Shown here: piece after piece, positions 1 to 16,873 of the stretch
Numbering within the stretch: the stretch's first letter is position 1
How the letters are laid out: each line of letters starts with the position of its first letter
From: a virus
Taxonomy: Duplodnaviria; Heunggongvirae; Uroviricota; Caudoviricetes
DNA length: 17,831 nucleotides
IMG/VR virus record: IMGVR_UViG_2695420624_000004
Direction: 5' to 3' (one strand)
The notes under the pieces: generated by a model
The model's input: the letters and a program-made list of their open reading frames with translations, nothing else
Told to the model about the DNA's origin: nothing
The model's database searches: none
Program-made: the position numbers and the translations under genes

Positions 1-405
1 ATGGATCAGGTCGTTGTTTTTCAAAAGATGTTTGAGCAAGTGAGAAAAGAGCAAAACTTCTCCTGGTTTTATTCAGAATTAAAACATCACCGTATTGCAC
101 ATTACATTTATTATCTGGCTACGGATAACATCAGAATTATTACTCACGATGATACGGTTTTGTTATTAAGAGGAACCAGGAACCTGTTAAAAGTTAGTAC
201 GACCAAGAACCCTGCTAAAATAAAAGAGGCCGCATTGCTTCATATTTGCGGAAAATCTACATTTCGGGAATACTGTTCAACACTGGCAGGTGCGGGCGTT
301 TTCCGGTGGGTTACTGATGTTAATCATAACAAACGCAGTTACTACGCCATTGATAATACGCTTTTATATATTGAAGATGTAGAAAATAATAAACCATTAA
401 TCTAG
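1..405 (+). CDS. ycgX: YcgX-like small protein (134 aa), host gene flanking the prophage
   Basis: Complete ATG-to-stop ORF starting at base 1. Length and position (beyond iraM, distal to the icd fragment) match the icdC-iraM-ycgX arrangement I remember from E. coli K-12. Identity is from memory and synteny, not a search. Confidence 0.5.
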   Translation: MDQVVVFQKMFEQVRKEQNFSWFYSELKHHRIAHYIYYLATDNIRIITHDDTVLLLRGTRNLLKVSTTKNPAKIKEAALLHICGKSTFREYCSTLAGAGVFRWVTDVNHNKRSYYAIDNTLLYIEDVENNKPLI

Positions 406-611
406 CTAAAGTTGGATACTTAAGAAATGCTTCATAATTCAGTAAGGCATTAGCATAATGGAAATAAAAGTGCAGAGACTATCTCTATGGATGATTAATA
501 CTGTCTTTTTATTGTCACCCATAAATAATCACCAGACTAATACTATCAACTTGATATTTGAAATGTGATCACTTGACTTTTGATACGTTATTTTATAACG
601 GTTAACATATT

Positions 612-643
612 TATAAAAACAACGGCCGTGCCACACGTCCGTT
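612..643 (-). terminator. Terminator-like hairpin, diverged second copy of the icd terminator
   Basis: AACGGCCGTG-CCA-CACGTCCGTT stem-loop (one mismatch), followed on the minus strand by a T5 run. About 50 bp (611-660) aligns with the icd terminator region at 1476-1525, with compensatory stem changes. Confidence 0.45.
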
Positions 644-999
644 TCAATACTTAACGCACATGTATTTTGGTTTAGTCATCATCCGGTTATATGTATTTTA
701 GCCAGGAACAGGTTAAATCATTCCTATATAACTCAAAAATTGAAACCTTATTCTCATGTCATGCTTATATTCATTATTATCGTTATATAAAAAGGCAACC
801 ATAATGTTTAGCAAATTGGCACAAAGTAGCATAAAGGCTATGTTTTAATTACAGGATGTTCAGTCATTTGAATGTATAACATTATAGCTAAACAAATCTA
901 AAACGAAGTCAATAATTTATTGCTTTCACAAAATCTCATTTTGTTTAACATCCATTGAGATTCCTTGCTTTAAATTTTATTTTATATAAGCCATCATTT

Positions 1000-1040
1000 T
1001 AATTAATTTATTTTTTTGAGGGGGGGGGTAATATACTCAT
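1000..1040 (+). promoter_or_regulatory. Candidate iraM promoter (TAATAT -10-like element at 1029-1034)
   Basis: AT-rich region with a TAATAT hexamer about 70 bp upstream of the iraM start. No clear -35. Inferred from sequence only. Confidence 0.3.
1020..1028. repeat. G9 homopolymer preceded by T7, inside the putative iraM promoter
   Basis: Sequence reads TTTTTTT-GA-GGGGGGGGG-TAATAT at 1011-1034, about 78 bp upstream of the iraM ATG. The tract lies just upstream of a -10-like TAATAT. Confidence 0.9.
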
Positions 1041-1105
1041 ATGCAAAATCAAGAAATAAACATCCTAATGAACCATATTAAATACCGTGGGATAAGACAT
1101 AACAA

Positions 1106-1429
1106 ATGAAGTGGATAGTAATTGACACGGTAATTCAACCTACATGTGGTATATCTTTTTCAGCCATATGGGGTAATATGAAAATGATCATCTGGTATCA
1201 ATCTACTATATTTCTCCCTCCTGGCAGTATATTTACACCGGTTAAGTCTGGTATTATCCTTAAGGATAAAGAATATCCTATTACTATTTATCACATCGCA
1301 CCATTCAACAAGGATTTATGGAGTTTACTCAAAAGCAGTCAAGAGTGTCCTCCAGGAGAAAGCAAAATAACAAATAAATGTTTACATAATAGTTGCATTA
1401 TAAAAATATGCCCATATGGGCTCAAGTAA
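1106..1429 (+). CDS. iraM: IraM-like anti-adaptor protein (107 aa)
   Basis: 107-aa ORF ([13 protein letters not shown]...), AT-rich, divergent from and adjacent to the displaced icd fragment. Length and synteny match iraM (ycgW) as I remember it. Confidence 0.6.
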
Positions 1430-1475
1430 TGGGCTTCATATAAATATGCTCGATATGCTATTAATAATATCCACA

Positions 1476-1508
1476 TAAATAAAACAACGGGCGTGTTATA
1501 CGCCCGTT
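1476..1508 (-). terminator. icd Rho-independent terminator
   Basis: AACGGGCG-TGTTATA-CGCCCGTT hairpin, followed on the minus strand by GTTTTATTTAT, about 25 nt after the icd TAA stop. Confidence 0.7.
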
Positions 1509-1531
1509 TCAATATTTAACACATGGAGAGA

Positions 1532-1696
1532 TTACATGTTTTCGATGATCGCTTCACCAAACTCTGAACATTTCAGCAGCTTAGCGCCTTCCATCAGACG
1601 TTCGAAGTCATAAGTTACGGTCTTGGCATTGATTGCGCCTTCCATACCTTTAACAATCAGGTCAGCCGCTTCAGTCCAACCCATATGGCGCAGCAG
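1532..1696 (-). pseudogene. icd: Displaced 3' fragment of isocitrate dehydrogenase (icdC-type), last 54 codons plus stop
   Basis: Minus-strand translation reads [54 protein letters not shown], the Icd C-terminus. Homology stops abruptly at about 1696; upstream is unrelated AT-rich DNA. The 165-nt length matches the e14-type integration site in icd. Confidence 0.85.
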
Positions 1697-1885
1697 TATA
1701 TAAAAACCATGAATTCAAGTCATTGATATTTAACGATAAAAATTATTTTATTGTCTTTTTATTAGCCAAAATAAACTTTATTCAACCGTTTGATTTCATT
1801 GACGTTCGTTTTTATTTTGGGGAAAGGTTTTCTCTACCATTTATATCCAAATTACAAGTCTACATTTTATTAACATCTCAATACA

Positions 1886-1916
1886 TGTGAGGCCTTGCAG
1901 ACCTTTGTGAGACCTT
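1886..1916. repeat. Clustered direct repeats TGTGAG(G/A)CCTT / GACCTT in the att-proximal arm
   Basis: Reads TGTGAGGCCTT-GCAGACCTT-TGTGAGACCTT within 31 bp, about 200 bp inside the prophage from the att junction. Arrangement resembles recombinase arm-type sites. Confidence 0.4.
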
Positions 1917-2396
1917 ATGTGTCTCTGTTTTGTCCCAACTTATGTTAAGAGGCACATAATTAAAAATAAGATAACGATGCCGCCAAGCAGTGCAAAACCT
2001 TGTTTACTCCACGACTGTCTGCCCCATTATCTGCATACATAATTATCCTCCATAACTGAGATAAATGTCGGTTATGAGCGAACAACAGACGTTTAGTTTA
2101 TGATGGCTGTGTCTATACATTAAACATAACATCCATTACCGGCACCGCTTATTAATTGCTATCTGATATTGTCACTAAAAAAATAGGCATTCCCCGATAT
2201 AATAATCACAAAGAAGCTTTTGGTGCTGGCAATCGGTATACCTCATAGTGGACTGCGACTTTCCGGGCACGACAAGGATATATCAATGTATGAGCAGGAA
2301 AATTAGACCGTGGTGCGTCATATGATGACTAAGCACGGATAACAGCTACTTAATTGAAACTATTGATTATATTACAGCCAGTGCCTTATAGGATGG

Positions 2397-3518
2397 TTAG
2401 TCATCAACCGCGACTCCTGCACAATCATGGGCTATTGCCAGCAATTGTTTTTTAATTGCTTTAGCATCTACCGTCATATCTACTGTAGCAAAATGGATCT
2501 TATGTCCCTGAGTGACAACATACTCATTAAGCATATAGCCAACAGCTGGATGAAGTAGAAGACCAGCGGCATTGAGCGAAAGCGGATCCGTCTTGTTCTC
2601 CTGTGTTCTAAGGTAGGTATATAGCTGATAAATATAGCCATTACGTAGTGATTGCTCCCGATGCCAACCCTTTGTCAGAATCGAATTAAATTTGGTATCG
2701 ATAATAATACGCCGCTGGGCAGTCTTGTGTTCCAGAATAATGTCTGACTTCATTGTCGGGAAAATCTCTGCACTACCTGCACTTTGATCGCTCAACGCCC
2801 ATTTCAGCTCTTTCCCTGCAGAGACCTGCCAAGTTGTTTTGGCAAGGTGTACACGATATAAGCCAGCGATACCTTTTTCAAATAGTCTTCTCATCCAGTA
2901 AAGGTTATTTGAGGGCGCAGGTAAAAGATATTGGCCTTGATCTTCGGTCGGCATCAGCAGTTCAAAAGCTAATCGTGCGGCATCGACCATCGGTTTATCT
3001 GCGGCATCATGGCGTCCAAAACGCCACACTGAGGGTAATTCGCGGGGGGCAGGATATCCTCCATTTATCCCCTCACGGCGAAGTGATATTGCCATAAAAT
3101 GGCAATCTGCCGCCAAAGACGGTTTCACTATGATTGAGGCCAGACGTTCTAACGCACAGCGAACATAGCGATTTCGGGGGGTGTTGAGGGTTATGTCTTG
3201 AAAATGGCAGGCAACCTGTCCCCGTTCCAGCAGTTGATGACTGGCAGTATACAGTATGTCAATGCGCCCTCTCACCCGGTTCAGGGCCGCATGACAAGTT
3301 TGGTATCCCATATTTAAATTGCGACGTCGGCGCAGCGTAATCTCATGAAGGAGGATTGTCGCCACCAGGTCGGGGATTTCTGCTGGGTTATCTTCTACTG
3401 CGATCTGATTGCGCCCTAACTGGCGAAACAGATCTGAAGCGTACAGCATCAGCATCCAGATATTTCGCATGGGAATACGTGATGCTGTATGTTGCTCACT
3501 CCCGGTTATTGTCGTCAT
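2397..3518 (-). CDS. McrC-family nuclease subunit of a Type IV (modification-dependent) restriction system
   Basis: 373-aa ORF. N-terminal PMRNIWMLMLYA resembles the McrC N-terminus; the IIIDTKF...QSLRNGYIYQLYTYL block matches the McrC PD-(D/E)xK nuclease region. Start ATG overlaps the upstream stop as ATGA. Confidence 0.8.
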   Translation of the reverse strand: MTTITGSEQHTASRIPMRNIWMLMLYASDLFRQLGRNQIAVEDNPAEIPDLVATILLHEITLRRRRNLNMGYQTCHAALNRVRGRIDILYTASHQLLERGQVACHFQDITLNTPRNRYVRCALERLASIIVKPSLAADCHFMAISLRREGINGGYPAPRELPSVWRFGRHDAADKPMVDAARLAFELLMPTEDQGQYLLPAPSNNLYWMRRLFEKGIAGLYRVHLAKTTWQVSAGKELKWALSDQSAGSAEIFPTMKSDIILEHKTAQRRIIIDTKFNSILTKGWHREQSLRNGYIYQLYTYLRTQENKTDPLSLNAAGLLLHPAVGYMLNEYVVTQGHKIHFATVDMTVDAKAIKKQLLAIAHDCAGVAVDD

Positions 3519-5497
3519 TTTGCTAATAACACTTTTCTGGCTTCATCGACTTTATTTGGAGCATCGAACCAATATTCGGCGAGCAAAGGGCAGATCTCTG
3601 TATCAACGACTTGTTCATACCAAGCCTGGGCATCGTTGATTTTTTGGCCGATAGCTGGGGTGACATAGCTGTGACCGATACAAAACTGTGGTCCTAAGGT
3701 AACATCTTTTGCCAGCATATCGTTTAATACCGTCAGTCGAGATTTGATGAATGCTAACATGTCAAAATCAATTGCGTAATTATAATTTACCCAGTTTCTC
3801 CACGCGTCATTAAAAGCTGGCTTTAGATCGATAAACGCGAAACGACGGCGCAGCGCTAGGTCAAGTAGTGCGAGTGAGCGGTCTGCAATATTCATCGTAC
3901 CGATGATATATAGATTCTCAGGAATGTATATTTTTTCATCAGCATTTTTAGGATAGGAAAGAGATAATGCCTCAGTCGGCGTGCGTTTATCTGCTTCCAT
4001 CAACGTGAGTGTTTCACCGAAGATTTGCGCCGGATTGCCACGATTAATCTCTTCAATTATCACCACATATTTCGAGGTAGGATTATTGACTGCAGTTTTG
4101 ATTGCATTTACAAAAGGTCCATCAATTAGCGTCAATTGCCCTTCTTTACCTGGACGCCAGCCTCGAATAAAGTCTTCGTAAGAGAGGTTCGGGTGAAATT
4201 GCACCGCGCTAATACGCTCAGGTGCTTTTTCTCCCATCAAGCAGTACGCCAGACGTCGCGCTAACCAAGTTTTTCCAGTTCCGGGTGGTCCTTGTAATAT
4301 CAGGTTTTTCTTGTCGATCAGGCGCTGAAGTGTGAGTTGGATCTTAGCCTCTTCCAAGAAACAGCCATCCTGCACCAGATGACTGATGTCATAAGGAACG
4401 TGGGTGAGTTTTGGCAACAGCGCACTCTCTTCGACAGTTTCCTCAGTTATCGTCTGGGATTCGTTTTTCTCAAAATTCAGGTATTCATAATTTCCGGACT
4501 CGAGGGACTTTAACTCATCATCATTGCATAGTTTCTGTAGATAAAAGTAGATTGAGCTTGTAACAGTTTTGCTCTCAGGATGCTCTACCTTGAATACGTC
4601 CAAGTAGTTTTCTTCCAACTCCGAAGCAGTGAAATAAGGGCCATTTTTTTTCAGGCATAACGCCTTAATTTTATTCAGTAAAGAGGCTTTCCACGTTCTA
4701 TTTGCCACCTCATCTTTAGACTGGCTAAGATCTGTATTCCACGCTGATAAGGAAAGTTCTGGGAAAGAATGAACCGGATAGTTTGGTTGGGTAAAGACCT
4801 CGTTCAGCGCCCGCATAAGACTCAGGTAACTTTGTCCACTACAGCGACCTTTTGCCCCGTTTTTAATGATCTTAATGTTTAACACTGTCTGAATGTAATA
4901 CTGCGACTGGCTATCTAAAGTGGGGTAGAACCAAGGACGGGTCCAGTACAACCCCATGGTGAGATTCCAACCGACATTCATTACTGTAGAAGCGATGTCA
5001 TATGCGGCAGTGAAGTCTGCAGAGTTAGTATTCTGGTTATCCGCAAAGATCATTGCCTGTGAGAACATTTCCCACAAGCATTCAATGTCATTAGGGTCGC
5101 GTGACTTTTCATAACCAAAGAACCAAGATTTTTGGTTATTCAACAGAGGGATTCCGGCAAAGGAGTCAGGAATCGGTTCGTTCACGCCCAACAAATTCGC
5201 TAGCTTGGCAGCAATAATTTTGCGATTGCTGTCGGTCAAGTTACGATTGAACAAGCCCATAGTAGTAAACGGACAAATGTCTTTTAAGGGAAAGATCTCT
5301 CCCATAATAGATTTGTCCTGCAGATGGGACATTCCTTCCACACCCGAGGCAATTAGATGAATACCTTTGACTAATTCATCTCTACGATTTCGCCAAGTCA
5401 GTAACGCGTTGGCAAAAGCCTCATAAAAACTAGCCCAAGCAAACTTGCCATCATGTTCTGCTGTATCCACGGGAACTCCATTATACTTGTTGAGCAA
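3515..5497 (-). CDS. McrB-family AAA+ GTPase with an extended, uncharacterised N-terminal region of about 400 aa
   Basis: Walker A LILQGPPGTGKTW and a C-terminal IIGTMNIADRS...ALRRRFAF block typical of McrB. The annotated start is TTG; an in-frame GTG at 5470 with GGAG 5 nt upstream and a TATAAT just before it is a plausible alternative start. Confidence 0.85.
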   Translation of the reverse strand: MLNKYNGVPVDTAEHDGKFAWASFYEAFANALLTWRNRRDELVKGIHLIASGVEGMSHLQDKSIMGEIFPLKDICPFTTMGLFNRNLTDSNRKIIAAKLANLLGVNEPIPDSFAGIPLLNNQKSWFFGYEKSRDPNDIECLWEMFSQAMIFADNQNTNSADFTAAYDIASTVMNVGWNLTMGLYWTRPWFYPTLDSQSQYYIQTVLNIKIIKNGAKGRCSGQSYLSLMRALNEVFTQPNYPVHSFPELSLSAWNTDLSQSKDEVANRTWKASLLNKIKALCLKKNGPYFTASELEENYLDVFKVEHPESKTVTSSIYFYLQKLCNDDELKSLESGNYEYLNFEKNESQTITEETVEESALLPKLTHVPYDISHLVQDGCFLEEAKIQLTLQRLIDKKNLILQGPPGTGKTWLARRLAYCLMGEKAPERISAVQFHPNLSYEDFIRGWRPGKEGQLTLIDGPFVNAIKTAVNNPTSKYVVIIEEINRGNPAQIFGETLTLMEADKRTPTEALSLSYPKNADEKIYIPENLYIIGTMNIADRSLALLDLALRRRFAFIDLKPAFNDAWRNWVNYNYAIDFDMLAFIKSRLTVLNDMLAKDVTLGPQFCIGHSYVTPAIGQKINDAQAWYEQVVDTEICPLLAEYWFDAPNKVDEARKVLLAK

Positions 5498-5830
5498 TGA
5501 TAATTTATCTGTGTGAGTTTTAACATATTACTATCAGTTATAGAAAAATTTAACTATCCGATACAGAGAGCGGAATGCTGAATTTGACCTGACTTGCTTC
5601 CAACCAATTAAAATCAACTTATTTATCAATTGGTTATTTTGGCACATGGCGGTCATCAAGGCAATATCGCGTTGTCATAAGGTGTCGAGGCTCGGAGGTT
5701 CAAATCCTCTCATACAAAAAATAAATAAAATTAATGACGGTTGGAAATTATTCAATACACTCTCGAAAGTACATCAGCCAACCGCAGCACGTTATTGCAT
5801 ATAACGTTTCTGCGGCATATCACAAAACTA

Positions 5831-6415
5831 TTATTCCATAACAGGGATTGCAGGCCACTCAATATCAGGTGCAGTTGATGTATCAACACGATTCAGCAAC
5901 ACCCGATACTTCTTCCAGGCTTCAAGCAACGAGGTTTCTTCCTCCGTTGCGATTTCCAGATCTGCAGCATCCTGAAGCGGGGCAATATGCTCACTGGCTA
6001 CCTGCATCAGGCTGTTTTTTGTTTCTTCCGCCTCCCGGATCCGGAACAGTTTTTCTGCTTCCGTATCCTTCACCCAGGCTGTGCCGTTCCACTTCTGAAA
6101 CTCCCCTTCCGGGGATAACCAGGTGATATTTTCCGGTAGAGGTCCGAGTTCAGAAATAAATAACGAGTCGCCGGAAGCCACGTCATAGACGGTTTTTCCC
6201 CGATGATCTTCAACGAGATGCCACGATGCCTCATCACTGTTGAAAACAGCCACGAAGCCTACCGGAATATCTGGCGGTGCAATATAGGTACTGTTTGCTG
6301 GCAGACCTGTATGAGGCGGAATATATGCGTCACCTTCACCAATAAATTCATTAGTTCCGGCCAGCAGATTATAAATTTTTATGGTCCGTGGTTGTTCACT
6401 CATTCTGAATGCCAT
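5831..6415 (-). CDS. tfa: Tail fibre assembly protein (lambda Tfa-like)
   Basis: 194-aa ORF ([24 protein letters not shown]...WPAIPVME), near-identical to lambda Tfa as I remember it. Start overlaps the stf stop by 1 nt (TAATG). Confidence 0.9.
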
Positions 6416-9264
6416 TATGCAAGCCTCACAATGTAGTTAAATGCGATGTTTTTGACGGTGTTTTCCGCGTTACCAGCAGCGTTAACGGTGATGGTGTGTC
6501 CATGTGAGCCAATCGCAACGGAGTGCGTATGAGCACCAATACCGACAGTATGTGCATGTGCGCCTGCGCTTGCAGCAGTGCCGGACAGCGAGTGGGTATG
6601 AGCACCATCTGATGATGTCTTCCCTGCATTACGAGTCTGGCCACTACCGCTTGTTGTGCTCATAATCCCCGCGCTTGGATTTGAAATCGCGGTATAACCA
6701 TTAGGGAAAATGCTCGTGTTCGTGCCACCAAATGCACCGGAACTCTTGTGTTGGTGCGCGCCGGCACTATTTGCGGTCCCGCTAATACTATGGGTATGCG
6801 CCCCGGTGTTATTCGTGGATTTGGTTCCGTAATCAAACGACGATGTGGTTTTCGTCCCCAAATCCGTACTGGATGCGCTGGCGCTGTGGGTGTGCGATTT
6901 AATGCCGTCCTGTTCCTGAGACAATACGGCCCGACCACTGGCAGGTTTGCCCTTAATCGTCCAGCCACGCATATCAGGGATCACGCCTGACGGATAAGCG
7001 GCTGCAAGTTTCGGGTAAGCAGATTTGTCAAAAGTCTGCCCCTGCATCAGGGCATAACCAGACGGAACGGTATCTGATGGCCACGGGATTGGTGCGCCGA
7101 CTGGGTAGCTTTCTGGTGGAAGATTTTTCGAGGTATAAACTTCTGCCCAGCCTTCCTCAAAACCATAACCGTCTCTTGAAGAACGGTAGAACAGACCACC
7201 ATTTCTGTAATGCGCCTTCATCTGCAGGGTCCGGCAACTTCCGACTCCGGTATAGAAGTTAACCAGAATATAGCTGTCGCCAGAGCGGGTGACATTGTAA
7301 GCGCCTGATTCGGCATTCCAGGGAACGCCACCATCCGCATCGGCATATGTATCCGTTGCCCTTCTGGCAAAAGCAGCCACATGCGCGGCGGTTAAAGTAA
7401 TATCTTTGGAACCATCAAATGGAACACCGGATATTTTTCTTGCAGTCTGGAGTTTTGTAGCAGTTGCAGCATTACCAGTGGTGTTCTGATTACCCGTAGT
7501 GTTTACACCTGGAAGGTTAATATTTGCAGAACCGTCGAAAACAACTCCACCGATAGATCTTGCCGTCTGCAATTTCGTGGCTGTACTTGCATTACCATTC
7601 AATGAACCAGTTAATCCACCTGTAACAGACAACGGACCTGAAACTGTTCCTCCGGTTGTTGGCAGTGCTCCAATATCTGATGGTGTAGGTTTCTGATGTG
7701 AGCTATACATCGTATAAACAACACCATAGGTAACGCTGGAAGGCTTACTCGCTGAATATGTTGGCGAGGTATAAACAGAAACTGACGCATTTGCAGTACA
7801 ATCCCAATGGATATTTACACTCGTCGCATAATTGCCAATCTCAACGTAAATATCATATGTATCGCCGGATGTGTTGATCCAGGCGAAATTCGTTAATCCG
7901 ACGGCTGTACGCTTCCACAAAGCCCCGGTAATTCCTTTGGGGTTTCCATTGCCTGCTCGTAGAACCAGTTCTGAAATGCCTGCCTGATGTGGGGAACCGA
8001 CGTTGTAACCAGCGCCACCAATCAATGCGATGTAAACGATGGAACTCGCTTGTGGCATGGTAACCGTAGCCAGTTTGAACCACCCAGCCCCGCCAGAGAA
8101 AGACATCGTTACTGAATTTAAAGTACCAATATCTTTCGGCGTTAATGTTATATCCGCAGTCAGTGCTTTTCCGTTAACTTTTCGGTTAGATGGCACCCTG
8201 CTATTCGCATTGTCATTGGCTGCTTTAACTGCTTTTGGCGTTGCGGCCAGCGATTCACTGGTGCTATCAACAGCACTGCTAAGTTTCACAACACCTTTAG
8301 TTGTAAGGCTTGCGTCTTCCATCGCAACTGCACCGGCAATCTCTTCAGCACGATCAGCAGCAGCTTCCGCACGGGTCGCAGCGGATTCAGCAGTAGTTTT
8401 GCTCTGAGATGCCGCCGTCGCACTGCCAGCTGCCTCTGTCGCCTTCGTGGATGCTGTCGTGGCGCTGCCTTTCGCTGCTGATGCCTGTCTGCTCGCCTCA
8501 TCTTTTGAAGCAGACGCAGATGATGCCGATGACGCCGCCGAACTGGCGGACGATGCAGCTGCCATTTTTGAGGATTCTGCACTGGTTTCCGAGGCTTTCG
8601 CGTTCGTTTCGGATGTCTTCGCTGCGGATGCAGACCTCGCTGCTGCGCTGGCCTGTTCAGCGGCTTCGCCAGCCTTCGTTGTGGCTGTTGAAGCAGACGA
8701 TGCGGCGCTTTCTGCCGATTTTCCGGCGGCGGTGGCACTGGCTGAGGCCTGCCCGGCACTTGTTGACGCGGCACTGGCAGACGACGCAGCCGCTGTTTTT
8801 GAGCCTGCCGCAGCCGAGGCGCTCTGTCCCGCTGCCGTTTCAGAAGACCTGGCGTTTGTCTCAGACGTCTTTGCCGCCTTCGCGGAATTGCCTGCCGCCG
8901 TTGCCGAGGAAGCGGCACTACTGGCGCTTGATGATGCGTTCGTTTCTGATGATTTCGCTGCCTCTTTTGAGGCCGCCGCATCCCGGGCTGAGGTGGCTGC
9001 TTCTGACGCCTTCGTGGTCGCGGCGGATGCAGAAGTGGCTGCTGATTGTTGTGACGCTGCCGCATTCGTTTCTGACGTTTTCGCCGCACCGGCACTGGTA
9101 GCTGCCGCGCTTTTTGAGGACTCTGCAGCAGCACTTTTTGCTGCTTCACGGGCCTTTGTCGATGCCGTTCCTGCGCTGGAAGACGCTGACTGAGCCGACG
9201 ACGCGGCCTGTCCGGCTGACGTGCTGGCGGCACGTGCTGAGCCTGCAGCATCGGTTATTACCAC
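6415..9264 (-). CDS. stf: Side tail fibre protein (lambda Stf-like), body and receptor-binding tip; N-terminal part is in another frame
   Basis: Long Ala/Ser-rich KTSETNA-type fibre repeats, a conserved GAPIPWPSD...[24 protein letters not shown] region and a His-rich HxH C-terminal tip ending [11 protein letters not shown]. Confidence 0.85.
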
Positions 9265-9577
9265 TTCCCGGATCGCTATACGCTATTCCGTTAAAGATAA
9301 TGGGCGGAATAATGATTTGACGGTCAAAGTTATGATCATCGCTGATGGTGACTGTAACCGTCCCGTTTGGTGTTTCCGTATTACCCCACGTACCAGCCTG
9401 TTTCGGGAATGATTTGGATACAGCTTTAACGAAGTCACCTCTGACCGGACTCCCCTGCCCGTCAACCAGGCTTATCAGCGTGGTGCCGGAAGATGGCAGC
9501 GTGATTTCACGGTCGAGCGTCAGCGTCCGGGTCTGGCTGTTTACCGCCAGCACGCGCCCGCCGGTGCGGATACCCAA
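9146..9577 (-). pseudogene. Upstream segment of the tail-fibre reading frame, out of frame with the stf body (frameshift or junction)
   Basis: This ORF overlaps the stf body ORF at 9146-9264 in a different frame. Its first ~100 codons look like real protein, then it degenerates into an out-of-frame read of the Ala/Ser repeats. Assignment as Stf N-terminus is tentative. Confidence 0.4.
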
Positions 9578-9795
9578 GCTGGAGTGGCGAACGTTTTACC
9601 CTTGCTGATGAGGTATTCACTGATTTCGCTGTACCACATGTGGCTGAGTGCATTCTGGGAAAGACTGCGTCTCTCGCGCCACGGTTTAAGCACCATGCGA
9701 AAGCATTTGCCGTCCTCCAGATAAGGCTGGATCTGCCGACCGATAGCGGTGAAGTTACCGCGATGCAATTTGATACCATCTTGTGGGAGGTTCAC
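9541..9795 (-). pseudogene. NinB/YbcN-family protein, N-terminal fragment truncated by a deletion joint
   Basis: 84-aa ORF with GTG start preceded by GGAGG. The block KPWRERRSLSQNALSHMW resembles the NinB RSLDQNRKLW region. The ORF ends prematurely in non-homologous sequence near 9541-9580. Confidence 0.45.
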
Positions 9796-9989
9796 GCTTC
9801 ACCTCCGCAGAGATCAAACGCTGGATGCAAAATATCGCAGGTGCATTTCTGCATCTGTGAATGGAGAAGAGAGGTTGGATTGTATGTGCGCATAAACGTC
9901 CCCGTTTAGCGCAGAAGTCACCGGAGTTGTTCAGGCCCCAATGGCATGATTATGGCTGGTTGATTATTGGAAATCAAATGTGCTGAAAA

Positions 9990-10499
9990 TTAGTCTGCCA
10001 AGTCTTCCTCAGTCGCAACTGGGTAATTCCAAATATCAAAAAAAGCTATAGCCTCCTGCCATTTGCTCCATAAGTTATCAAGTACTTGTGTAGGTTCCGT
10101 ACTTTTAAAAACAGAATCAGCCGCATCACCGTTATGAACTTCCTCGTACAGTTCCATTATTAGCAGATTAACAAAGTACTGTTTCAACATTAATGCCTGA
10201 TTACCTTCTTTCTGCTGGCTATCCTGCTTGATGATCTCCATCGCCCGTACTAGGCACCTGATGATATCCGCTGCATCATTAACGCTCCATTCAGATCCGC
10301 GCTTATCTTTAGCTGATGAATTGGCTCTCTCAGCGCAAGCCTTTAAAGACTCATAAAGGTAAACTCTATTTTGTAGCTGCAGCGCTTTTTTTGACGTGTA
10401 CCAACTTGCAAGCGCCGACCCCGCTGCGGCTAATGTGCCAAACGCAGAAATACCTGCTGCTATTGCACTTAAGTCGGCACTGTCAAAGTTCCACATCAT
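9990..10499 (-). CDS. Hypothetical 169-aa protein with one N-terminal hydrophobic helix (membrane-anchored); stand-alone moron
   Basis: ATGATG start preceded by AAGGTG at 5-nt spacing. Upstream AT-rich region has -35/-10-like elements. Residues 10-33 (LSAIAAGISAFGTLAAAGSALASW) are hydrophobic; the rest is charged and helical-looking. No family recognised. Confidence 0.6.
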   Translation of the reverse strand: MMWNFDSADLSAIAAGISAFGTLAAAGSALASWYTSKKALQLQNRVYLYESLKACAERANSSAKDKRGSEWSVNDAADIIRCLVRAMEIIKQDSQQKEGNQALMLKQYFVNLLIMELYEEVHNGDAADSVFKSTEPTQVLDNLWSKWQEAIAFFDIWNYPVATEEDLAD

Positions 10500-10675
10500 C
10501 GTTACACCTTATATAAATACCCCTCAGTAATATCCAATAAGGTATGTGCACAATCAATATAATTTTATCCGTATCGGCACATAGCGATTTGAACGCTACT
10601 GGTAATGGTATATTTTAGATTATATCGTCCAGTTTACAGCACCCGTATTTTATGAAATGGACTCGCATATTACCC

Positions 10676-10714
10676 AAAAAATGCCAGCACTTCCGTCATC
10701 GTAGAATGCTGGCA
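10676..10714 (-). terminator. Rho-independent terminator between orf99 and orf169
   Basis: Perfect 8-bp inverted repeat TGCCAGCA/TGCTGGCA with a 17-nt loop, followed on the minus strand by a T6 run. Confidence 0.5.
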
Positions 10715-10757
10715 GTATTTCTAACTAGTGACTTTATTGGAACAGATTCTGACGGAA

Positions 10758-11057
10758 TTATGGTAACACTCGACTCCACTTATCATCCAGCCACGGCTGG
10801 AATTTTACATGTGCCGTTTCTCTGGCGAGGATTGCTCGCGCTCTGTTGAGTATCTGGGGATATTCTTGCTCGATAGAAGTAAAGCGGCCGGCTTCGCGGT
10901 GCTCCGCAACCTGAAGTAGTGGAGTAACGTTCTGGCAGGCAGTTAACATCACATCACCTGCTCGCCATAACCAAGCACGTGCACAAAGTTTGTTATCAGT
11001 GAATTGTTTTGTGATTGGGTATTGTTGAACTGCTAGAACGAGAACGCCAGCATCCAT
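10758..11057 (-). CDS. Hypothetical 99-aa protein (nin-region cargo)
   Basis: ATG-initiated ORF with AGGGA upstream, co-directional with ybcK and the orf169 moron. No family recognised. Confidence 0.45.
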   Translation of the reverse strand: MDAGVLVLAVQQYPITKQFTDNKLCARAWLWRAGDVMLTACQNVTPLLQVAEHREAGRFTSIEQEYPQILNRARAILARETAHVKFQPWLDDKWSRVLP

Positions 11058-11168
11058 TGGCAGTCCCTATAGTAAAACCATAGCTCAGGACGCTTCGTTC
11101 AGGATAGATAATTTTATTGTACTTACCTAACTTTCTTACTATAGCACGGTTGAAAAAGTGATTATTAC

Positions 11169-12695
11169 TCAAAAATAAACCTCACCATCAACCATATATT
11201 TGAGAGTACTTATCGCCTGCTGGGCGGATATTGTTTTCATTAAAGGATAGTGTTTAAAAACAATGCCATTCATAAAATAGATATCACAGGTTTTATTATC
11301 TGTATTGATTATGATTTTTTCGAATGTTTTATAGGCAAGTGTACGACATAGCTCTCGCCCATTTTTACTGGTTAAGTCAATAGCATGAAAATCACCAAGT
11401 GAACTCACCGCTTTACTCTTCAAAGTTTTTAATGATACAGAAGCCCTTCGTAATTCCTTATCTAATACTCTGATTTTTTCTGCTATAGCGGTAACTTCAG
11501 GCGCAACAGATAATGCAGCAATTAAATTATTAATTTTCATCTGGAGCTCAATAATTTTCAACTCTAAAGTTTCATTAGCATCTTTCTTGTTTTCAACTGG
11601 TTGGATTTTACTACAATTAAAAAGCAACTCATTAATGATATTATAATCAACCAAATCTCTCTTTATTGATGGCCTGTCACATCGATGCAGTCTTCTCATC
11701 GGACAAACATAATAGCCATGCAAACTTCCAGATACCGCATGAACAATCATGGTATTACCACAAGCCTCGCACTTCATAACTGTTCGAAGTAGATTTATCA
11801 ACATAGGATTTTTGCTACTATTGCTAATACCAAAAGGTGCCAACCGAATTTCCTGCACAGCGTAAAACAAATCATCTGATATGACTCTGGGATAATAGCC
11901 AGCGATTTCACTTATTCCTTTACCTCTTGCACGATATGAAGGTACGCATATACCTATCAGAGCTTTATTCGCTAATAATTTTTCAATTACAGAAGGTCCC
12001 CATGCACTTTCTTTTCCTGAGAAATTCTTTACAGCATGATCATTTAAATACTTGGCTATTGCATTCAATGAGCGCCTTTCCATCCTGAGTTTAAAAATTA
12101 GCTCAATAGTTTTCACCCTGTCGGGGTCTGGAACAAAAGCCGTTCTTTTGTCATCCAATGAGAGCCATCTCGGACAAGACGCCGTCATAATCGTGCCTGA
12201 CTCCAGTGCATCCTGCCGTTTTTTCTTCCATGATAATTTAACCCGACTTGACTTTATCTCGCTTTCTTCATTTGCCCTTTGTGCTATAAGTATGGCTTTT
12301 ATTAATGAATATGGCTCATTCAATGAGTCAATATTATAGACTGTATTATCGCAAAGAGTTATAACATCAATACCGTGATTCAAAATCAATTTCAGACGCT
12401 CAATCGCCTCACCGACTTTTTCTCTTGAAAGTCTGTCCAGACTTTCAACTAACAATGTAGTCCCTGGCAATATATAACCATGTTCTATAGCATCTAAAAA
12501 TTCCGAAAAAGCTCCTGATTGTGCATGCTTTCCATTGAATGCGCTTAACCCCAAATCTTCATACGTTACGGTATCAAGGTAATAATCACTATTTACCTTT
12601 AGCCATTCAGTAATAAGCCTTCTCTGGCGGTTTAATGAATCACCAGACATCTGACTTGGTGATGAAAATCGCATATATGCTATGGCTTTTTTCAT
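11169..12695 (-). CDS. ybcK: Large serine recombinase (YbcK-like)
   Basis: 508 aa. N-terminal resolvase-type catalytic domain (AIAYMRFSSPSQ with the presumed serine nucleophile), recombinase domain and a Cys-rich zinc-ribbon region (CEACG...CPMRRLHRC). Length and position next to emrE match DLP12 ybcK. Confidence 0.8.
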   Translation of the reverse strand: MKKAIAYMRFSSPSQMSGDSLNRQRRLITEWLKVNSDYYLDTVTYEDLGLSAFNGKHAQSGAFSEFLDAIEHGYILPGTTLLVESLDRLSREKVGEAIERLKLILNHGIDVITLCDNTVYNIDSLNEPYSLIKAILIAQRANEESEIKSSRVKLSWKKKRQDALESGTIMTASCPRWLSLDDKRTAFVPDPDRVKTIELIFKLRMERRSLNAIAKYLNDHAVKNFSGKESAWGPSVIEKLLANKALIGICVPSYRARGKGISEIAGYYPRVISDDLFYAVQEIRLAPFGISNSSKNPMLINLLRTVMKCEACGNTMIVHAVSGSLHGYYVCPMRRLHRCDRPSIKRDLVDYNIINELLFNCSKIQPVENKKDANETLELKIIELQMKINNLIAALSVAPEVTAIAEKIRVLDKELRRASVSLKTLKSKAVSSLGDFHAIDLTSKNGRELCRTLAYKTFEKIIINTDNKTCDIYFMNGIVFKHYPLMKTISAQQAISTLKYMVDGEVYF

Positions 12696-12880
12696 GGTGA
12701 CACCTGCTAAAGTATGCTTTTATAAACCTTAGTGGTGAGATATGATTTTTGTTTAATTTTTATTTAAAAAGACAATTAAGGTCACATTATCTTGAATATA
12801 CAACAATAATCGTATTGCAATTTTCTTACACCATAATCTTGAAAGCACAAAAGAATGAATAAAAACTAAAGACATTAACA

Positions 12881-12919
12881 AAAAGCATAAAACGAGGCCC
12901 ATATAAATATACGAGCCTC
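12881..12919 (-). terminator. Possible emrE terminator (weak hairpin plus T-rich tract)
   Basis: GAGGC/GCCTC 5-bp stem with a long AT-rich loop, followed on the minus strand by GTTTTATGCTTTTTG, about 30 nt after the emrE stop. Confidence 0.3.
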
Positions 12920-12950
12920 CATATTTTAGTCGTTTAAAAACAAATTATTT

Positions 12951-13283
12951 TTAATGTGGTGTGCTTCGTGACAATAAATTAATAACCAACACACCGGCAC
13001 AAATCAACATCATGCCTATAATGGCTGGCAGGTCCAACCGTTGGCCGAAAAATCCCCATGATAGTAAGCTAATCAGGACAATACCGACTCCTGACCAGAT
13101 AGCATAAGCAATCCCTGTAGGAATATAAGCCAGCGTCTGAGCTAATAACCAGAATGATGCACAATAACAAATAATTGTACCAACAGATGGCCATAACCGT
13201 GTAAAACCTTCTGAAAACTTCATTAAGGTTGTACCAATGACCTCTGCAAGTATTGCACCACCAAGATAAATATAAGGATTCAT
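12951..13283 (-). CDS. emrE: SMR-family multidrug efflux protein EmrE (110 aa)
   Basis: MNPYIYLGGAILAEVIGTTLMKFSEGF...LLSRSTPH is essentially the EmrE sequence. The ORF track's 128-aa version starts 18 codons upstream; the true start is the ATG at 13283. Confidence 0.9.
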   Translation of the reverse strand: MNPYIYLGGAILAEVIGTTLMKFSEGFTRLWPSVGTIICYCASFWLLAQTLAYIPTGIAYAIWSGVGIVLISLLSWGFFGQRLDLPAIIGMMLICAGVLVINLLSRSTPH

Positions 13284-13350
13284 AGCATATTCTTTCCTGT
13301 TCAAACTGGAGAGAATTGTACTACAGTTTGAACTCAACTCACCTGTTTCA

Positions 13351-13653
13351 TCATTGTGTACCCATTGATGTTCTTTTATATACCCTCAATACCCGTTTCA
13401 TCGCGGCACTCTGGCGACACTCCTTAAAAATCAAATTCGTGCTCACCTTTCCTTCCCATTCTTCTCTGGTAGCGAACCGATAATACACCGTTCGCCAGAC
13501 CTTACCATCAACGACTAGGATTCCTGCCCGCGCCATTTTAGCCGCAGCCTGATTTATGCTGGTTACCGTTGCGCCTGTTACCGCGGCAACGTCCTGCGCA
13601 CAGAATTTCTTATGAGTCCCCAGGTAATGAATAATTGACTCTTTGCCCGTCAT
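13351..13653 (-). CDS. ren: Ren-like protein
   Basis: MTGKESIIHYLGTH...AAKMARAGILVVDGKVWRTVYYRFATREE is near-identical to lambda Ren. Start overlaps the P stop (ATGA). Confidence 0.85.
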   Translation of the reverse strand: MTGKESIIHYLGTHKKFCAQDVAAVTGATVTSINQAAAKMARAGILVVDGKVWRTVYYRFATREEWEGKVSTNLIFKECRQSAAMKRVLRVYKRTSMGTQ

Positions 13654-14351
13654 ACCCTTGCTCCTTTCAGCCCAAACTTAGCTTTGATTTCTGCGATCTT
13701 CGCCAGAGCCTGTGCACGATTTAGAGGTCTACCGCCCATGACAGGAAGTTGTTTTACTGGTTCAGGTATAGCCTCACCACGGTTAATTCGTGCGGTCATA
13801 CAGGACAGTTCATCGGCAGCCTTGCGCCGTAATTCCGCGTCAGTCAACGCATTGGCCCGCATGTTCTGATACAGGTTGGTAACCAGCCAGTAGTGCGCGT
13901 TTGATTTCCACGGATAAGACTCTGCATCCGGATACAGCCCGCGCTTCCGGCAATACTCGTAAACCATATCAACCAGCTCGCTGGCGTTTGGCAGCCCGGC
14001 GGTAACGGATGCTTCTTCCCGGCACCAGGCGACAAACTGCCCGGGTGATGGCAGGAATGGTCGATTCTGCCGACGGGCTACGCGCATTCCAGCGTTAACC
14101 TGTTCCATTGTGGTGATCCCGTTTTCCCGAAAAGCCAGCACCCACTGGCGGCGGATTTCGTTCAGTTCATTCTGGTCACGGTTAGCCAGGCTCGCCGGGA
14201 AAGTTGCCAGTAACTGGCTGAACACACCGTTGATGATCTGCGCTACCTGCTGTACCTGTGGCTTTTCGTCGTACTGTTCCGGCATGTTGTTGGCGATCCG
14301 ACGCATCTGCTCACGGTCAAAGTTAACCATCTGTGCGGCGATGTTTTTCAT
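13650..14351 (-). CDS. P: Replication protein P (lambda P-like, full length, 233 aa)
   Basis: MKNIAAQMVNFDREQMRRIANNMPEQYDEKPQVQQ... near-identical to lambda P over the full length. Confidence 0.9.
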   Translation of the reverse strand: MKNIAAQMVNFDREQMRRIANNMPEQYDEKPQVQQVAQIINGVFSQLLATFPASLANRDQNELNEIRRQWVLAFRENGITTMEQVNAGMRVARRQNRPFLPSPGQFVAWCREEASVTAGLPNASELVDMVYEYCRKRGLYPDAESYPWKSNAHYWLVTNLYQNMRANALTDAELRRKAADELSCMTARINRGEAIPEPVKQLPVMGGRPLNRAQALAKIAEIKAKFGLKGARV

Positions 14352-14584
14352 AGATCCACCCCGTAAATCCAGTCAGTGTTTGTCAGGTCGAGTTTTGGTT
14401 TGCCGACTGTCACGCCAGCCTGTTGCTTGTTCCGGTTGATTTCGAGCTGGGTCCACTTGTCGCGGAGTTTGGCCGGACTCAGCACGTTACCGGACCAGAA
14501 GTTGTCCTGGCAGGCCCAGCGGAACAGTACACACATGTCGCGGTGGTTACGTCCATCACGTTCACGCATCAGACGGATATCGTT
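14348..14584 (-). pseudogene. O: Replication protein O, C-terminal ~78 codons only
   Basis: ...[59 protein letters not shown]...[13 protein letters not shown] matches the lambda O C-terminus. The first 16 codons of the ORF-track call are antisense to exo and not O. Confidence 0.8.
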
Positions 14585-15238
14585 ACCGGGATCGACGTGA
14601 GAGCTGTCGAACAGGGGGATGATGCGTGGCACAAATTACGGCTCGGCGTCATCACCGCTTCAGAAGTTCACAACGTGATAGCAAAGCCCCGCTCAGGAAA
14701 GAAGTGGCCTGACATGAAAATGTCCTACTTCCACACCCTGCTTGCCGAGGTTTGCACCGGTGTGGCTCCGGAAGTTAACGCTAAAGCACTGGCCTGGGGA
14801 AAACAGTACGAGAACGACGCCAGAACCCTGTTTGAGTTCACTTCCGGCGTAAATGTTATTGAATCCCCGATCATCTATCGCGACGAAAGTATGCGCACCG
14901 CCTGCTCTCCCGATGGTTTATGCAGTGACGGCAATGGCCTTGAACTGAAATGCCCGTTTACCTCCCGGGATTTCATGAAGTTCCGGCTCGGTGGTTTCGA
15001 GGCCATAAAGTCGGCTTACATGGCCCAGGTGCAGTACAGCATGTGGGTGACGCGAAAAGATGCCTGGTACTTTGCCAACTATGACCCGCGTATGAAGCGT
15101 GAAGGCCTGCATTATGTCGTGGTTGAGCGGGATGAAAAGTACATGGCGAATTTTGACGAGATGGTGCCGGAGTTCATCGAAAAAATGGACGAGGCACTGG
15201 CTGAAATTGGTTTTGTATTTGGGGAGCAATGGCGATGA
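14585..15238 (+). pseudogene. exo: Lambda exonuclease (Exo/Red-alpha) lacking its first ~9 codons; joined head-to-head to O'
   Basis: From [41 protein letters not shown] to the C-terminal FVFGEQWR this is near-identical to lambda Exo. The N-terminal 54 codons of the ORF-track call are antisense to O. No ATG start at the joint. Confidence 0.8.
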
Positions 15239-16454: not shown

Positions 16455-16521
16455 TGAATCAACATTGTCTCATATCAGCATGCTGTACGGCGTCTTTAAG
16501 GAACGGTGAGCATGAAAAACA

Positions 16522-16542
16522 AAATCATCATGGAGCTACAGG
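16522..16542 (+). terminator. Rho-independent terminator downstream of the DGQHR gene
   Basis: GGAGC-TACAG-GCTCC hairpin immediately followed by TTTTTTATT. Confidence 0.5.
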
Positions 16543-16826: not shown

Positions 16827-16873
16827 TGGCTTCAAAGCAGCAAATTTCAACATCGTCCAACTGAGGTGTAAAA

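What the first reader, a model, noticed from the sequence alone, without database searches (positions are those of the whole stretch)
611..1525. iraM is bracketed by two diverged copies of the icd terminator region
A roughly 50-bp segment (ATAAAACAACGG...CGCCCGTTTCAATATTTAACACATG) occurs at 611-660 and 1476-1525. Both copies keep a terminator hairpin, with compensatory changes in the stem. iraM and its AT-rich promoter lie exactly between them. This looks like a relic of a small element inserting at the icd 3' end, with iraM as horizontally acquired cargo.
Basis: seen in the sequence. Interest (0 to 1): 0.45.

Follow-up and report, generated by a model that had tools for sequence, protein, structure and literature searches.

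The report
Old attachment-site scar brackets iraM
The two terminator-like copies around the E. coli stress gene iraM are most likely the worn-down duplicate ends left when a mobile element carrying iraM inserted into the end of the icd gene, a well-known kind of scar rather than a new mechanism.

Summary
The repeat is real: 616-658 matches 1481-1523 at 36/43 bases, far above chance. The copy next to icd (T_B) is the conserved icd terminator. It is also found in Citrobacter, other Escherichia species and in the attP of phage 21-type phages. The far copy (T_A) sits on the native downstream flank. In this window its stem carries a C/T mismatch, so the changes are not compensatory. About 1,470 of 5,426 complete E. 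coli genomes have an empty site with one copy; about 3,700-3,880 have both copies plus iraM. Seventeen genomes carry a longer form. There the far copy continues through the icd stop codon and the last 13 bases of icd. About 6.3 kb (an AriR-like gene, iraM, trkG, an IS relic, a 455-aa ORF) lies between the copies. So the 45-bp repeat is most likely what two deletions left of an icd 3'-end duplication of the e14/phage 21 type, with iraM as surviving cargo. All diverged IraM relatives examined sit in lambdoid prophages or an integrase-bearing island. This is a new example of a known kind. It remains unresolved whether the empty site is ancestral or a later loss.

The parts
1..405 (+). ycgX (DUF1398 protein), chromosomal neighbour on the far side of the scar
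   Evidence: ORF. Pfam DUF1398, E 1e-47. RefSeq annotation of identical loci.
458..568 (+). ymgL small ORF, as annotated in RefSeq genomes
   Evidence: L003 feature 1553-1663 maps to window 458-568. It is present in both empty-site and iraM-bearing genomes.
566..615 (.). Native flank downstream of the icd terminator
   Evidence: About 50 nt are homologous to the sequence just beyond the icd terminator in Citrobacter braakii, Citrobacter sp. Cu233 and E. ruysiae (alignment; blastn 75-77% over 91-100 nt against flank' copies). It is contiguous with the single terminator in empty-site genomes.
616..660 (.). T_A: far, decaying copy of the icd terminator region (hairpin 621-643, AACGGCCGTGCCACACGTCCGTT)
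   Evidence: 36/43 identity to 1481-1523. C/T mismatch in the stem, -9.7 kcal/mol. Alleles with an intact stem occur in other lineages. The orthologous copy in the long form continues into the icd stop codon plus 13 nt of icd.
658..662 (.). Junction 1: inferred deletion junction between T_A and the iraM segment ('CATG' overlap)
   Evidence: Window 520-654 aligns to L072 9081-9215 and window 660-800 to L072 9436-9598. About 220 nt of L072, including the icd stop-codon relic, are missing here.
661..1105 (+). AT-rich iraM upstream region. It holds ymgK (804-848) and, at 1041-1109, a 22-codon ORF that is the relic of the start of an AriR/YmgB-like gene.
   Evidence: 27.9% G+C. 74-76% identical to the upstream region of the AriR-like/iraM module in L063, L065 and L070. 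Window 1040-1074 is 80% identical to the start of the intact AriR-like ORF, which has Pfam YmgB, E 6e-14. Translation.
1106..1429 (+). iraM (107 aa anti-adaptor of RssB)
   Evidence: ORF. RefSeq name in identical loci. Homologs at 94-96% identity are named IraM, with precomputed PF11183.
1430..1480 (.). iraM 3' flank, ending in the A-run that forms junction 2 with T_B (about 1476-1481)
   Evidence: Window 1404-1479 aligns to L072 10622-10695. L072 then continues with iraM's own hairpin terminator, trkG and more, whereas the window continues with T_B. Both partners end in CTA(C/A)CAAAAAC-type sequence (direct reading).
1481..1525 (-). T_B: functional-looking icd terminator (hairpin 1486-1508 followed by GTTTTATTTA on the minus strand). 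It probably also ends convergent iraM transcription.
   Evidence: Terminator scan hit. z about -5. The stem pairing is kept in all 8 short-form E. coli haplotypes sampled; one has the central 9 nt inverted. The stem sequence is the same in Citrobacter, E. whittamii and E. albertii, with one change in E. ruysiae, and it is present in phage 21-type attP regions.
1532..1684 (-). icd 3' fragment (last 50 codons; icdC-type pseudogene) displaced by the prophage now to its right
   Evidence: ORF translation ...GEAIIENM. Annotated as a partial isocitrate dehydrogenase in matching genomes.
1685..1700 (.). Junction of the icd homology with the current prophage arm (attR-type core region)
   Evidence: The window, ATCC 25922 and Eco889 share icd sequence up to ...GCGCAGCAGTATATAAAAA. 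The homology of phage 21-type attP with the window spans 1479-1700.
1701..17831 (.). Degraded lambdoid prophage integrated in icd. Genes: McrC/McrB-like, tail fibre and assembly protein, large serine recombinase, EmrE-like SMR, lambda P, DndB-like, IS3-family transposase. This is context for a later use of the same site.
   Evidence: Pfam hits. 17 genomes carry at least 80% of it at 99.9% identity. The O157:H7 locus has a related set ending in xis-int next to icd.

Best explanation
T_A and T_B are the two ends of an old attachment-site duplication.

An integrative element (a prophage or prophage-like island) carried its own copy of the icd 3' end, terminator and a little downstream flank. It recombined into the 3' end of icd in the manner of e14 and phage 21. 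The element-borne copy became the working end of icd; T_B descends from it. The native end was displaced to the far side of the element, still attached to the native flank, ymgL and ycgX; T_A descends from it. This native/element assignment is an inference, and I put its reverse at about 15%.

iraM, with an AriR-like gene just upstream, was cargo at the far end of the element. Deletions then removed almost everything else:
- the displaced icd fragment, back to just past its terminator (junction at 658-662);
- most of the AriR-like gene;
- about 4.8 kb between iraM and the proximal terminator (junction at the A-run, 1476-1481).

The 45-bp repeat is the part of the original repeat, at least 105 bp long, that survived both trimming events. 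T_B stays under selection as the terminator of icd and probably also of convergent iraM. T_A no longer ends icd and is drifting; the window's allele has a stem mismatch. Later the same site was used again, by the prophage at 1701 onward, which displaced T_B together with 153 bp of icd.

Shown: the repeat, the empty site, the long form with an icd-coding relic beside the far copy, phage-borne copies of the terminator, and prophage homes of IraM relatives. Inferred: that the short and long forms descend from one event, the order of the deletions, and which copy is native.
For: 1. The repeat is real and non-random.
2. An empty site with one copy joins the T_A flank directly to a B-type terminator and the icd stop codon. 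About 1,470 genomes have it.
3. The B-type hairpin is the icd terminator in Citrobacter, E. ruysiae (one stem change), E. whittamii, E. albertii and Escherichia sp. E1V33. The 50 nt left of T_A are homologous to their downstream flank.
4. Phage 21 and more than 25 other lambdoid phages carry window-homologous sequence covering exactly 1479-1700, that is the icd 3' end plus T_B, next to int and the attP arm sites. Duplicating this terminator is therefore a routine by-product of integration at icd.
5. The long form occurs in L065 and L072 and in 17 genomes in all. Its far copy, 9138-9242, aligns with its proximal copy, 15455-15559, through flank, hairpin, spacer, stop codon and TTACATATTCTTGAT (score 72-98 against a shuffle maximum of 29). 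Between them lie an AriR-like gene, iraM, trkG, an IS relic and a 455-aa ORF.
6. The window is collinear with the long form apart from three gaps. T_A shares the AATACTTAA variant with the long-form far copy, whereas all proximal, outgroup and phage copies have AATATT.
7. T_A has three stem alleles among the 8 short-form haplotypes sampled. T_B keeps its stem pairing in all 8.
8. IraM relatives at 54-73% identity sit between Q or stx and the lysis genes of lambdoid prophages, or in an integrase-bearing island.
9. Published background: e14 uses icd and leaves the icdC fragment (Hill et al. 1989, as cited in PMC13626634).
Against: - No integrase, excisionase or arm sites lie between T_A and T_B, in the window or in the long form. 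The element type is therefore inferred from the scar alone.
- The far copy keeps only 13 nt of icd, so the crossover point about 165 bp into icd cannot be seen.
- The short and long forms are very diverged: iraM 81% nt, ycgX 87-89%, and ycgX plus flank 22% different. They could be two independent insertions of related elements.
- The assignment of T_A as native and T_B as element-borne rests on flank continuity and on analogy with e14/phage 21 geometry.
- T_A keeps a perfect stem in several lineages. It may therefore still be useful, for example to stop ycgX-ymgL read-through, rather than simply decaying.
Confidence: 0.72

Rival explanations
1. A small element whose attachment site is the icd terminator itself inserted just downstream of the icd stop codon. 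It duplicated about 45-50 bp and carried only iraM and its promoter.
For: In the window the repeat is confined to the terminator region and iraM lies exactly between the copies. The empty site has one copy. The left edge of T_B coincides, within a few nt, with the end of phage-borne homology.
Against: The long-form far copy extends into icd coding sequence and into the flank, so the duplicated unit was larger than the terminator. The iraM-segment homology in L065, L070 and L072 continues left of window position 661. iraM has its own terminator in the long form. The window's edges are therefore truncations. No recombinase, inverted repeats or T_A-type att sequence turned up in viral or genome collections outside this locus.
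Confidence: 0.08
2. The same integration scar but with the opposite assignment. T_B is the native terminator and T_A came in with the element, with the crossover at the distal A-run end of the terminator.
For: T_B is identical to the single copy of empty-site ATCC 25922 (45/45) and to the outgroup consensus. All T_A alleles carry private changes (CCA loop, AATACTT, AACGCA) seen nowhere else, as an element-borne diverged att copy would.
Against: T_A is contiguous with the flank that adjoins the terminator in empty-site genomes and in Citrobacter. In the long form the proximal copy carries a different flank (flank'), 99% identical over 105 nt to the one beside an integrase-bearing island in S. 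flexneri, and the far copy carries a truncated icd end. This is the geometry of a displaced native end. B-type copies circulate on phages, so identity of T_B to other copies is uninformative.
Confidence: 0.15
3. A local duplication unrelated to mobile elements. The terminator was duplicated by slippage or unequal recombination, and iraM arrived between the copies, or the copies were homogenised, by other means. Alternatively the similarity is convergent, since both are GC-rich hairpins with A/T runs.
For: Hairpin terminators are short and can look alike. The pattern scan also hit unrelated terminators in distant bacteria.
Against: Similarity extends beyond the stem into the non-palindromic tail TTTCAATA(C/T)TTAAC and, in the long form, into the icd stop codon and coding sequence. 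The score is about 14 sd above shuffles. icd is a documented integration hot spot whose elements carry exactly this segment.
Confidence: 0.04

Closest known systems
e14 / phage 21 integration into icd, leaving the icdC pseudogene (Hill, Gray & Brody 1989, as cited in PMC13626634; phage 21 record OL657228)
   Same: Same target gene. Direct repeats made of the icd 3' end and its terminator. An element-borne copy completes icd while a native copy is displaced. Cargo genes sit near the element ends. The phage-borne homology covers window 1479-1700, including T_B.
   Different: This event has no integrase, excisionase or arm sites left. The displaced copy is trimmed to the terminator (13 nt of icd remain in the long form), so it is not annotated as icdC. 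The long form's proximal copy carries about 50-90 nt of extra downstream flank that phage 21 lacks. It lies outside the annotated e14 boundary and predates the prophage now in the site.
Decayed prophage or island remnants that leave a single useful moron, such as the IraM homologs in Stx2 phages or iraL on the potB island of CFT073 (PMC4045071)
   Same: An IraM-family gene as accessory cargo of a mobile element, AT-rich and with its own promoter. All diverged homologs examined are in lambdoid prophages or an integrase-bearing island.
   Different: In prophages the gene sits between Q or stx and the lysis genes, on the opposite strand. Here it is paired with an AriR-like gene and lies at the far end of an icd-integrated element. 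The chromosomal gene shares only its coding region with the phage copies (72.6% nt).
Bidirectional intrinsic terminator between convergent genes
   Same: T_B is a perfect 10-pair GC-rich hairpin with an A-run on one side and a T-rich tail on the other. It sits 57 nt after the iraM stop and 24 nt after the icd stop.
   Different: Only the icd-strand tail passes the simple T-run rule. Activity on either strand was not measured.

Membership tests
icd-targeting integrative elements (e14 / phage 21 type att duplication) | Inserted DNA is flanked by direct repeats made of the icd 3' end region | tested here: met
   The window keeps only the terminator part (616-658 / 1481-1523). The long-form allele has a repeat of at least 105 nt, comprising flank, terminator, spacer, stop codon and 13 nt of icd (L072 9138-9242 / 15455-15559).
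icd-targeting integrative elements (e14 / phage 21 type att duplication) | An uninterrupted empty site with a single copy exists in related genomes | tested here: met
   ATCC 25922 and Eco889 alignment. About 1,470 of 5,426 genomes carry the empty junction.
icd-targeting integrative elements (e14 / phage 21 type att duplication) | icd stays intact through the proximal copy, while the far copy is a truncated non-functional end | tested here: met
   L072 and L003 have full-length icd next to the proximal copy. The far copy has at most 13 nt of icd.
icd-targeting integrative elements (e14 / phage 21 type att duplication) | A tyrosine integrase (and excisionase) with arm-type sites lies next to the att copy | tested here: not met
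   No such gene lies between T_A and T_B in the window or in L072. The 455-aa ORF has no integrase domain. Integrases are present for other elements at the site. I therefore file this as a relic of such an element, not as an element.
icd-targeting integrative elements (e14 / phage 21 type att duplication) | The crossover lies at the core inside icd, about 165 bp from the stop codon | not testable with these tools
   The displaced copy is deleted beyond 13 nt of icd in every allele found.
Rho-independent terminator | A GC-rich stem-loop directly followed by a U-run on the transcribed strand | tested here: met
   T_B on the minus strand has 9-10 pairs followed by GTTTTATTTA. For T_A of this window only a 5-pair sub-stem is flagged and the energy is about halved. 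Activity was not measured.
Transposon or IS target-site duplication | A short (2-14 bp) exact duplication flanking an element with terminal inverted repeats and a transposase | tested here: not met
   The repeat is 43-105 nt. No inverted termini or transposase bound the iraM segment.
IraM / PmrD-like family (PF11183) | Sequence membership of the 107-aa product | tested here: inconclusive
   Homologs at 94-96% identity carry precomputed PF11183 and the name IraM, and RefSeq names the identical gene iraM. My own hmmscan of the window protein against the held Pfam copy returned no family at E <= 0.01.

The most novel reading that the evidence does not exclude
The scar records an insertion at icd older than any of the prophages now found in the site sampled here. 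If so, the roughly 27% of E. coli genomes without chromosomal iraM at this site, which in the strains I could identify are phylogroup B2 (ATCC 25922, DSM 30083), lost it through recombination across the 45-bp terminator repeat rather than never having had it. The repeat would then act as a built-in deletion switch for an RpoS-stabilising gene. The far copy would be kept in many lineages because it insulates the PhoP-controlled iraM promoter from ycgX-ymgL read-through.
Probability: 0.3. Interest if true: 0.45.

Novelty: new member of a known kind. Interest (0 to 1): 0.33.

Why it matters
It gives a concrete, sequence-level account of how iraM entered the E. coli chromosome. iraM encodes a regulator that stabilises the stress sigma factor RpoS under magnesium starvation. 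One paper states that iraM lies on e14 (PMC4045071). In fact it lies beyond the displaced icd fragment that marks the far boundary of e14 in K-12 (PMC13626634) and of the prophage in this window, inside an older, separate scar. The locus shows serial re-use of one attachment site, with nested relics. It also shows that iraM's present promoter region derives from an upstream AriR-like gene. Finally, it offers a simple explanation for the presence/absence polymorphism of iraM among E. coli lineages. The underlying mechanism, 3'-end duplication by integrases followed by prophage decay, is textbook, so the general significance is modest.

Tried and rejected
- A global MAFFT alignment of the window against L063 was misleading because of the rearrangements. 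I replaced it with local alignments.
- I looked for icd sequence immediately right of T_A in the window (and direct reading). Nothing convincing is there; the relic is visible only in the long form.
- I searched viral contigs for the T_A-type hairpin hoping to find a donor element. All 9 hits were the same E. coli locus, as host flank of prophage contigs.
- The scan of one genome per species found no T_A-type copy outside E. coli. E. fergusonii and Salmonella did not match the pattern, so their state is unknown.
- I asked whether ycgX and iraM are two morons of one collinear lambdoid prophage. DUF1398 does follow Rz in L060 in the same orientation as iraM. I rejected this as the main model because native flank and T_A lie between them, and the trkG order does not fit.
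- A neighbour-joining tree of ycgX plus flank, built to decide whether the empty site is ancestral, was unresolved (bootstrap 6-32).
- Literature searches found no description of the T_A relic. Hill et al. 1989 is not in the held library.
- H166/L064 and L005 are IS1-associated deletions and are uninformative.

Full report
**What is in the window.**
In window orientation the region reads as follows:
- ycgX (1-405, +; DUF1398)
- the small ORFs ymgL (458-568) and ymgK (804-848), as annotated in identical RefSeq loci
- iraM (1106-1429, +)
- the last 50 codons of icd on the minus strand (1532-1684, ...GEAIIENM)

From about 1700 to the end lies a degraded lambdoid prophage. Its genes are McrBC-like, a tail fibre and its assembly protein, a large serine recombinase, an EmrE-like transporter, lambda P, a DndB-like gene and an IS3-family transposase. 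The icd piece is therefore an icdC-type fragment displaced by a prophage sitting in icd. That situation is the one described for e14 in K-12 (Hill et al. 1989, as cited in PMC13626634).

**The observation.**
The repeat finder reports 616-658 against 1481-1523, 43 nt at 84% identity. The local alignment score is 29, against 12.0 +/- 1.2 (maximum 17) for block-shuffled windows. I call the far copy T_A and the icd-proximal copy T_B.

T_B is a perfect 10-pair hairpin (AACGGGCGTG-TTA-TACGCCCGTT). On the icd strand it is followed by GTTTTATTTA. It folds at z about -5 on both strands and the terminator scan picks it up.

T_A in this window is AACGGCCGTG-CCA-CACGTCCGTT. Pair 6-18 has changed on both sides, but to C/T, which is a mismatch. 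The closing pair went from G.U to G-C. The energy drops from -19.8 to -9.7 kcal/mol. The repeat is therefore confirmed, and the 'compensatory changes' are not.

**Empty sites and counts.**
Against 5,426 complete E. coli genomes:
- 3,862 carry at least 80% of 406-1700.
- 3,883 carry the iraM segment 661-1480.
- 3,703 carry the flank-T_A-segment junction intact.
- About 1,470 carry an 'empty' junction.

In the empty junction the T_A-side flank runs straight into one B-type terminator and the icd stop codon. Examples are ATCC 25922, Eco889 and the type strain DSM 30083. The rest are IS-associated or prophage-associated deletions.

**Which sequence is ancestral.**
A scan of one genome per species for AACGGNCGTGNNANACGNCCGTT found the B-type hairpin downstream of icd in these genomes:
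- Citrobacter amalonaticus, C. braakii and Citrobacter sp. Cu233
- E. whittamii, E. albertii and two unnamed Escherichia species
- E. ruysiae, with one stem change

The 50 nt left of T_A are homologous to the flank beyond the terminator in Citrobacter and E. ruysiae. T_A thus sits in the native position relative to the far flank, and T_B sits in the native position relative to icd.

The A-type hairpin was found only between the ymgL flank and the iraM upstream region. That holds for the species scan and for 9 viral-contig hits, which are host flanks of prophage contigs.

**Why this terminator gets duplicated.**
Phage 21 and more than 25 other lambdoid phages carry sequence homologous to window 1479-1700. 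That span is the last 165 bp of icd, the spacer and T_B. It ends within a few bases of the left edge of T_B and lies next to the attP arm sites and int. O157:H7 and other strains show int-xis directly beside such a copy. Every integration of this type creates two direct copies of the terminator.

**The informative intermediates.**
A diverged allele of the locus occurs in 17 complete genomes (L072, strain RMDEC465) and in a metagenome contig (L065). In L072 the order is:
1. ycgX
2. ymgL-like flank
3. a terminator copy
4. TTAACATATTCTTGAT, which is the icd stop codon plus its last codons
5. about 190 nt of unassigned sequence
6. an extended left part of the iraM segment
7. an intact AriR/YmgB-family gene (Pfam E 6e-14)
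8. iraM (81% nt identity), with its own hairpin terminator
9. trkG
10. an IS relic
11. a 455-aa ORF
12. a Citrobacter-like flank (flank')
13. a terminator copy
14. intact icd

The far copy (9138-9242) aligns with the proximal copy (15455-15559) through flank, hairpin, spacer, stop codon and 13 nt of icd. The scores are 72-98 against a shuffle maximum of 29. The far copy is therefore a truncated displaced icd end. That is the signature of integration into icd, not of insertion at the terminator.

The window is collinear with this long form apart from three gaps:
- L072 about 9216-9435, which removes the icd relic and gives the junction at window 658-662 with a CATG overlap
- most of the AriR-like gene, leaving a 22-codon ORF at 1041-1109 that abuts the iraM start
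- L072 10696-15487, giving the junction at the A-run 1476-1481, where both partners read CTA(C/A)CAAAAAC

L063 is the long form with a different deletion, which removes the far copy altogether. The flank' version of the att segment also lies beside an island in S. flexneri that carries an integrase fragment and AAA_21/HNH genes. Such segments do travel on integrative elements.

**Behaviour of the two copies.**
Across 8 short-form haplotypes the T_B stem pairing is always kept. Its tail varies, and one allele has the central 9 nt inverted, as in phage 1H12. T_A has three alleles:
- a stem identical to T_B with a CCA loop (D8, 2022N21-074-17, S1-CHI-01-A, HCM-27C-1; -15.3 kcal/mol)
- one C-to-T wobble (S. 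flexneri; -13.4 kcal/mol)
- the K-12-like allele of this window (-9.7 kcal/mol)

All T_A alleles and the long-form far copy share AATACTTAA. Every proximal, outgroup and phage copy has AATATT at that position. This links the short-form and long-form far copies.

**Origin of the cargo.**
IraM relatives at 54-73% identity are confined to Escherichia. They lie in lambdoid prophages between Q or stx and the esterase/holin genes, on the opposite strand (Stx2 phages 1717 and 2851, E. albertii and E. coli prophages), or in an integrase-bearing island. Only the coding region is shared with the chromosomal gene (72.6% nt). The iraM segment is 30% G+C, against 45% for the whole window. Hryckowian et al. 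2014 treat iraL as horizontally acquired and place iraM 'on the e14 prophage' (PMC4045071). Strictly, iraM lies beyond the displaced icd fragment, outside e14 as bounded in PMC13626634.

**Best explanation and open points.**
I conclude, with about 0.72 confidence, that the repeat is the trimmed remnant of an e14/phage 21-type att duplication from an old integration that brought iraM. T_A is most likely the displaced native terminator and T_B the element-borne, now functional, one. The reverse assignment remains possible (about 0.15). A small terminator-targeting element is unlikely (under 0.1).

Whether the empty site is ancestral or a secondary loss through T_A x T_B recombination is unresolved. 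Empty-site haplotypes are no more distant from iraM-bearing ones (2.6-3.9%) than those are from each other. The long form is 22% away. The tree is unresolved (bootstrap 6-32). If the short and long forms share one event, the empty site must be a loss. A crossover anywhere in the 15 identical bases AAAACAACGGGCGTG would give exactly the ATCC 25922 sequence.

**Novelty.**
The mechanism is well known and the horizontal origin of iraM-family genes has been proposed. The specific scar, its intermediates and the AriR-like ancestry of the iraM upstream region were not found in the literature I could search. I rate it a new member of a known kind, of modest interest.

Noticed in passing
window 1041-1109: A 22-codon ORF ([22 protein letters not shown]) ends in ATGA, overlapping the iraM start codon. 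Its start is 80% identical over 35 nt to the start of the intact AriR/YmgB-like gene that precedes iraM in the long-form alleles. The K-12-type iraM leader and promoter region therefore seems to be recycled from that gene.
   Followed up: partly
window 1019-1027: A run of nine G sits just upstream of the small ORF and iraM (GAGGGGGGGGGTAA). The homologous place in L063 reads TTGGGAGTC, a ribosome-binding site. I did not check whether the run length varies between strains.
   Followed up: no
L076 1530-1552 (strain 2022N21-074-17); L010 (phage 1H12): One T_B allele has the central 9 nt of the hairpin inverted (GTGTTATAC to GTATAACAC) with the stem kept. The same flipped form is in phage 1H12's attP. 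This could be a hairpin loop inversion, or replacement of the chromosomal terminator by a phage-borne allele.
   Followed up: partly
L076 53-511; one search hits H24 and H37: IS200C copies are inserted immediately beside the T_A hairpin in several strains. IS1 insertions and IS1-associated deletions also cluster here (L005, L064, H122).
   Followed up: no
L060 50-529: A DUF1398 gene (the YcgX family) lies after Rz1 in a lambdoid prophage, in the same orientation as that prophage's IraM homolog. ycgX itself may be of prophage origin.
   Followed up: partly
L012, L016 and L019 (S. flexneri SFBU0723): This genome has three terminator copies: T_A and T_B around iraM, plus a third beside the functional icd. 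The third copy is attached to a Citrobacter-like flank and to an island with an integrase fragment and AAA_21 ATPase plus HNH genes (defence-like). L012 and L016 look like two copies or overlapping fetches of the same iraM locus.
   Followed up: partly
window 2397-5497 and 15390-16454: The prophage in icd carries a McrC/McrB-like pair (373 and 660 aa; the McrB-like protein has a long N-terminal extension before the AAA_5 domain) and a DndB-like / DGQHR gene. These are probable anti-phage cargo at the att-proximal end.
   Followed up: no
L020 and L021: Contigs labelled as an uncultured Sutterella genome and a Veillonella parvula MAG carry E. coli-type sequence: a phage 21-type attP with icd, and the ymgL flank with terminator and icd. 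They look like mis-binned E. coli or phage contigs.
   Followed up: no
window 1106-1429: hmmscan of the window's IraM against the held Pfam-A copy gave no hit at E <= 0.01. Yet the protein database lists precomputed PF11183 (PmrD) for 94-96% identical proteins.
   Followed up: no
L034 984-1700 and 217-546; L042 6170-6886 and 7315-7644: In Escherichia sp. E1V33 and E. whittamii the genes downstream of icd are a 238-aa YebC-like ORF and a 109-aa cysteine-rich ORF (identified by eye only), not ycgX, bluR or bluF. The whole ycgX-ymg block beside icd may be specific to E. coli.
   Followed up: no
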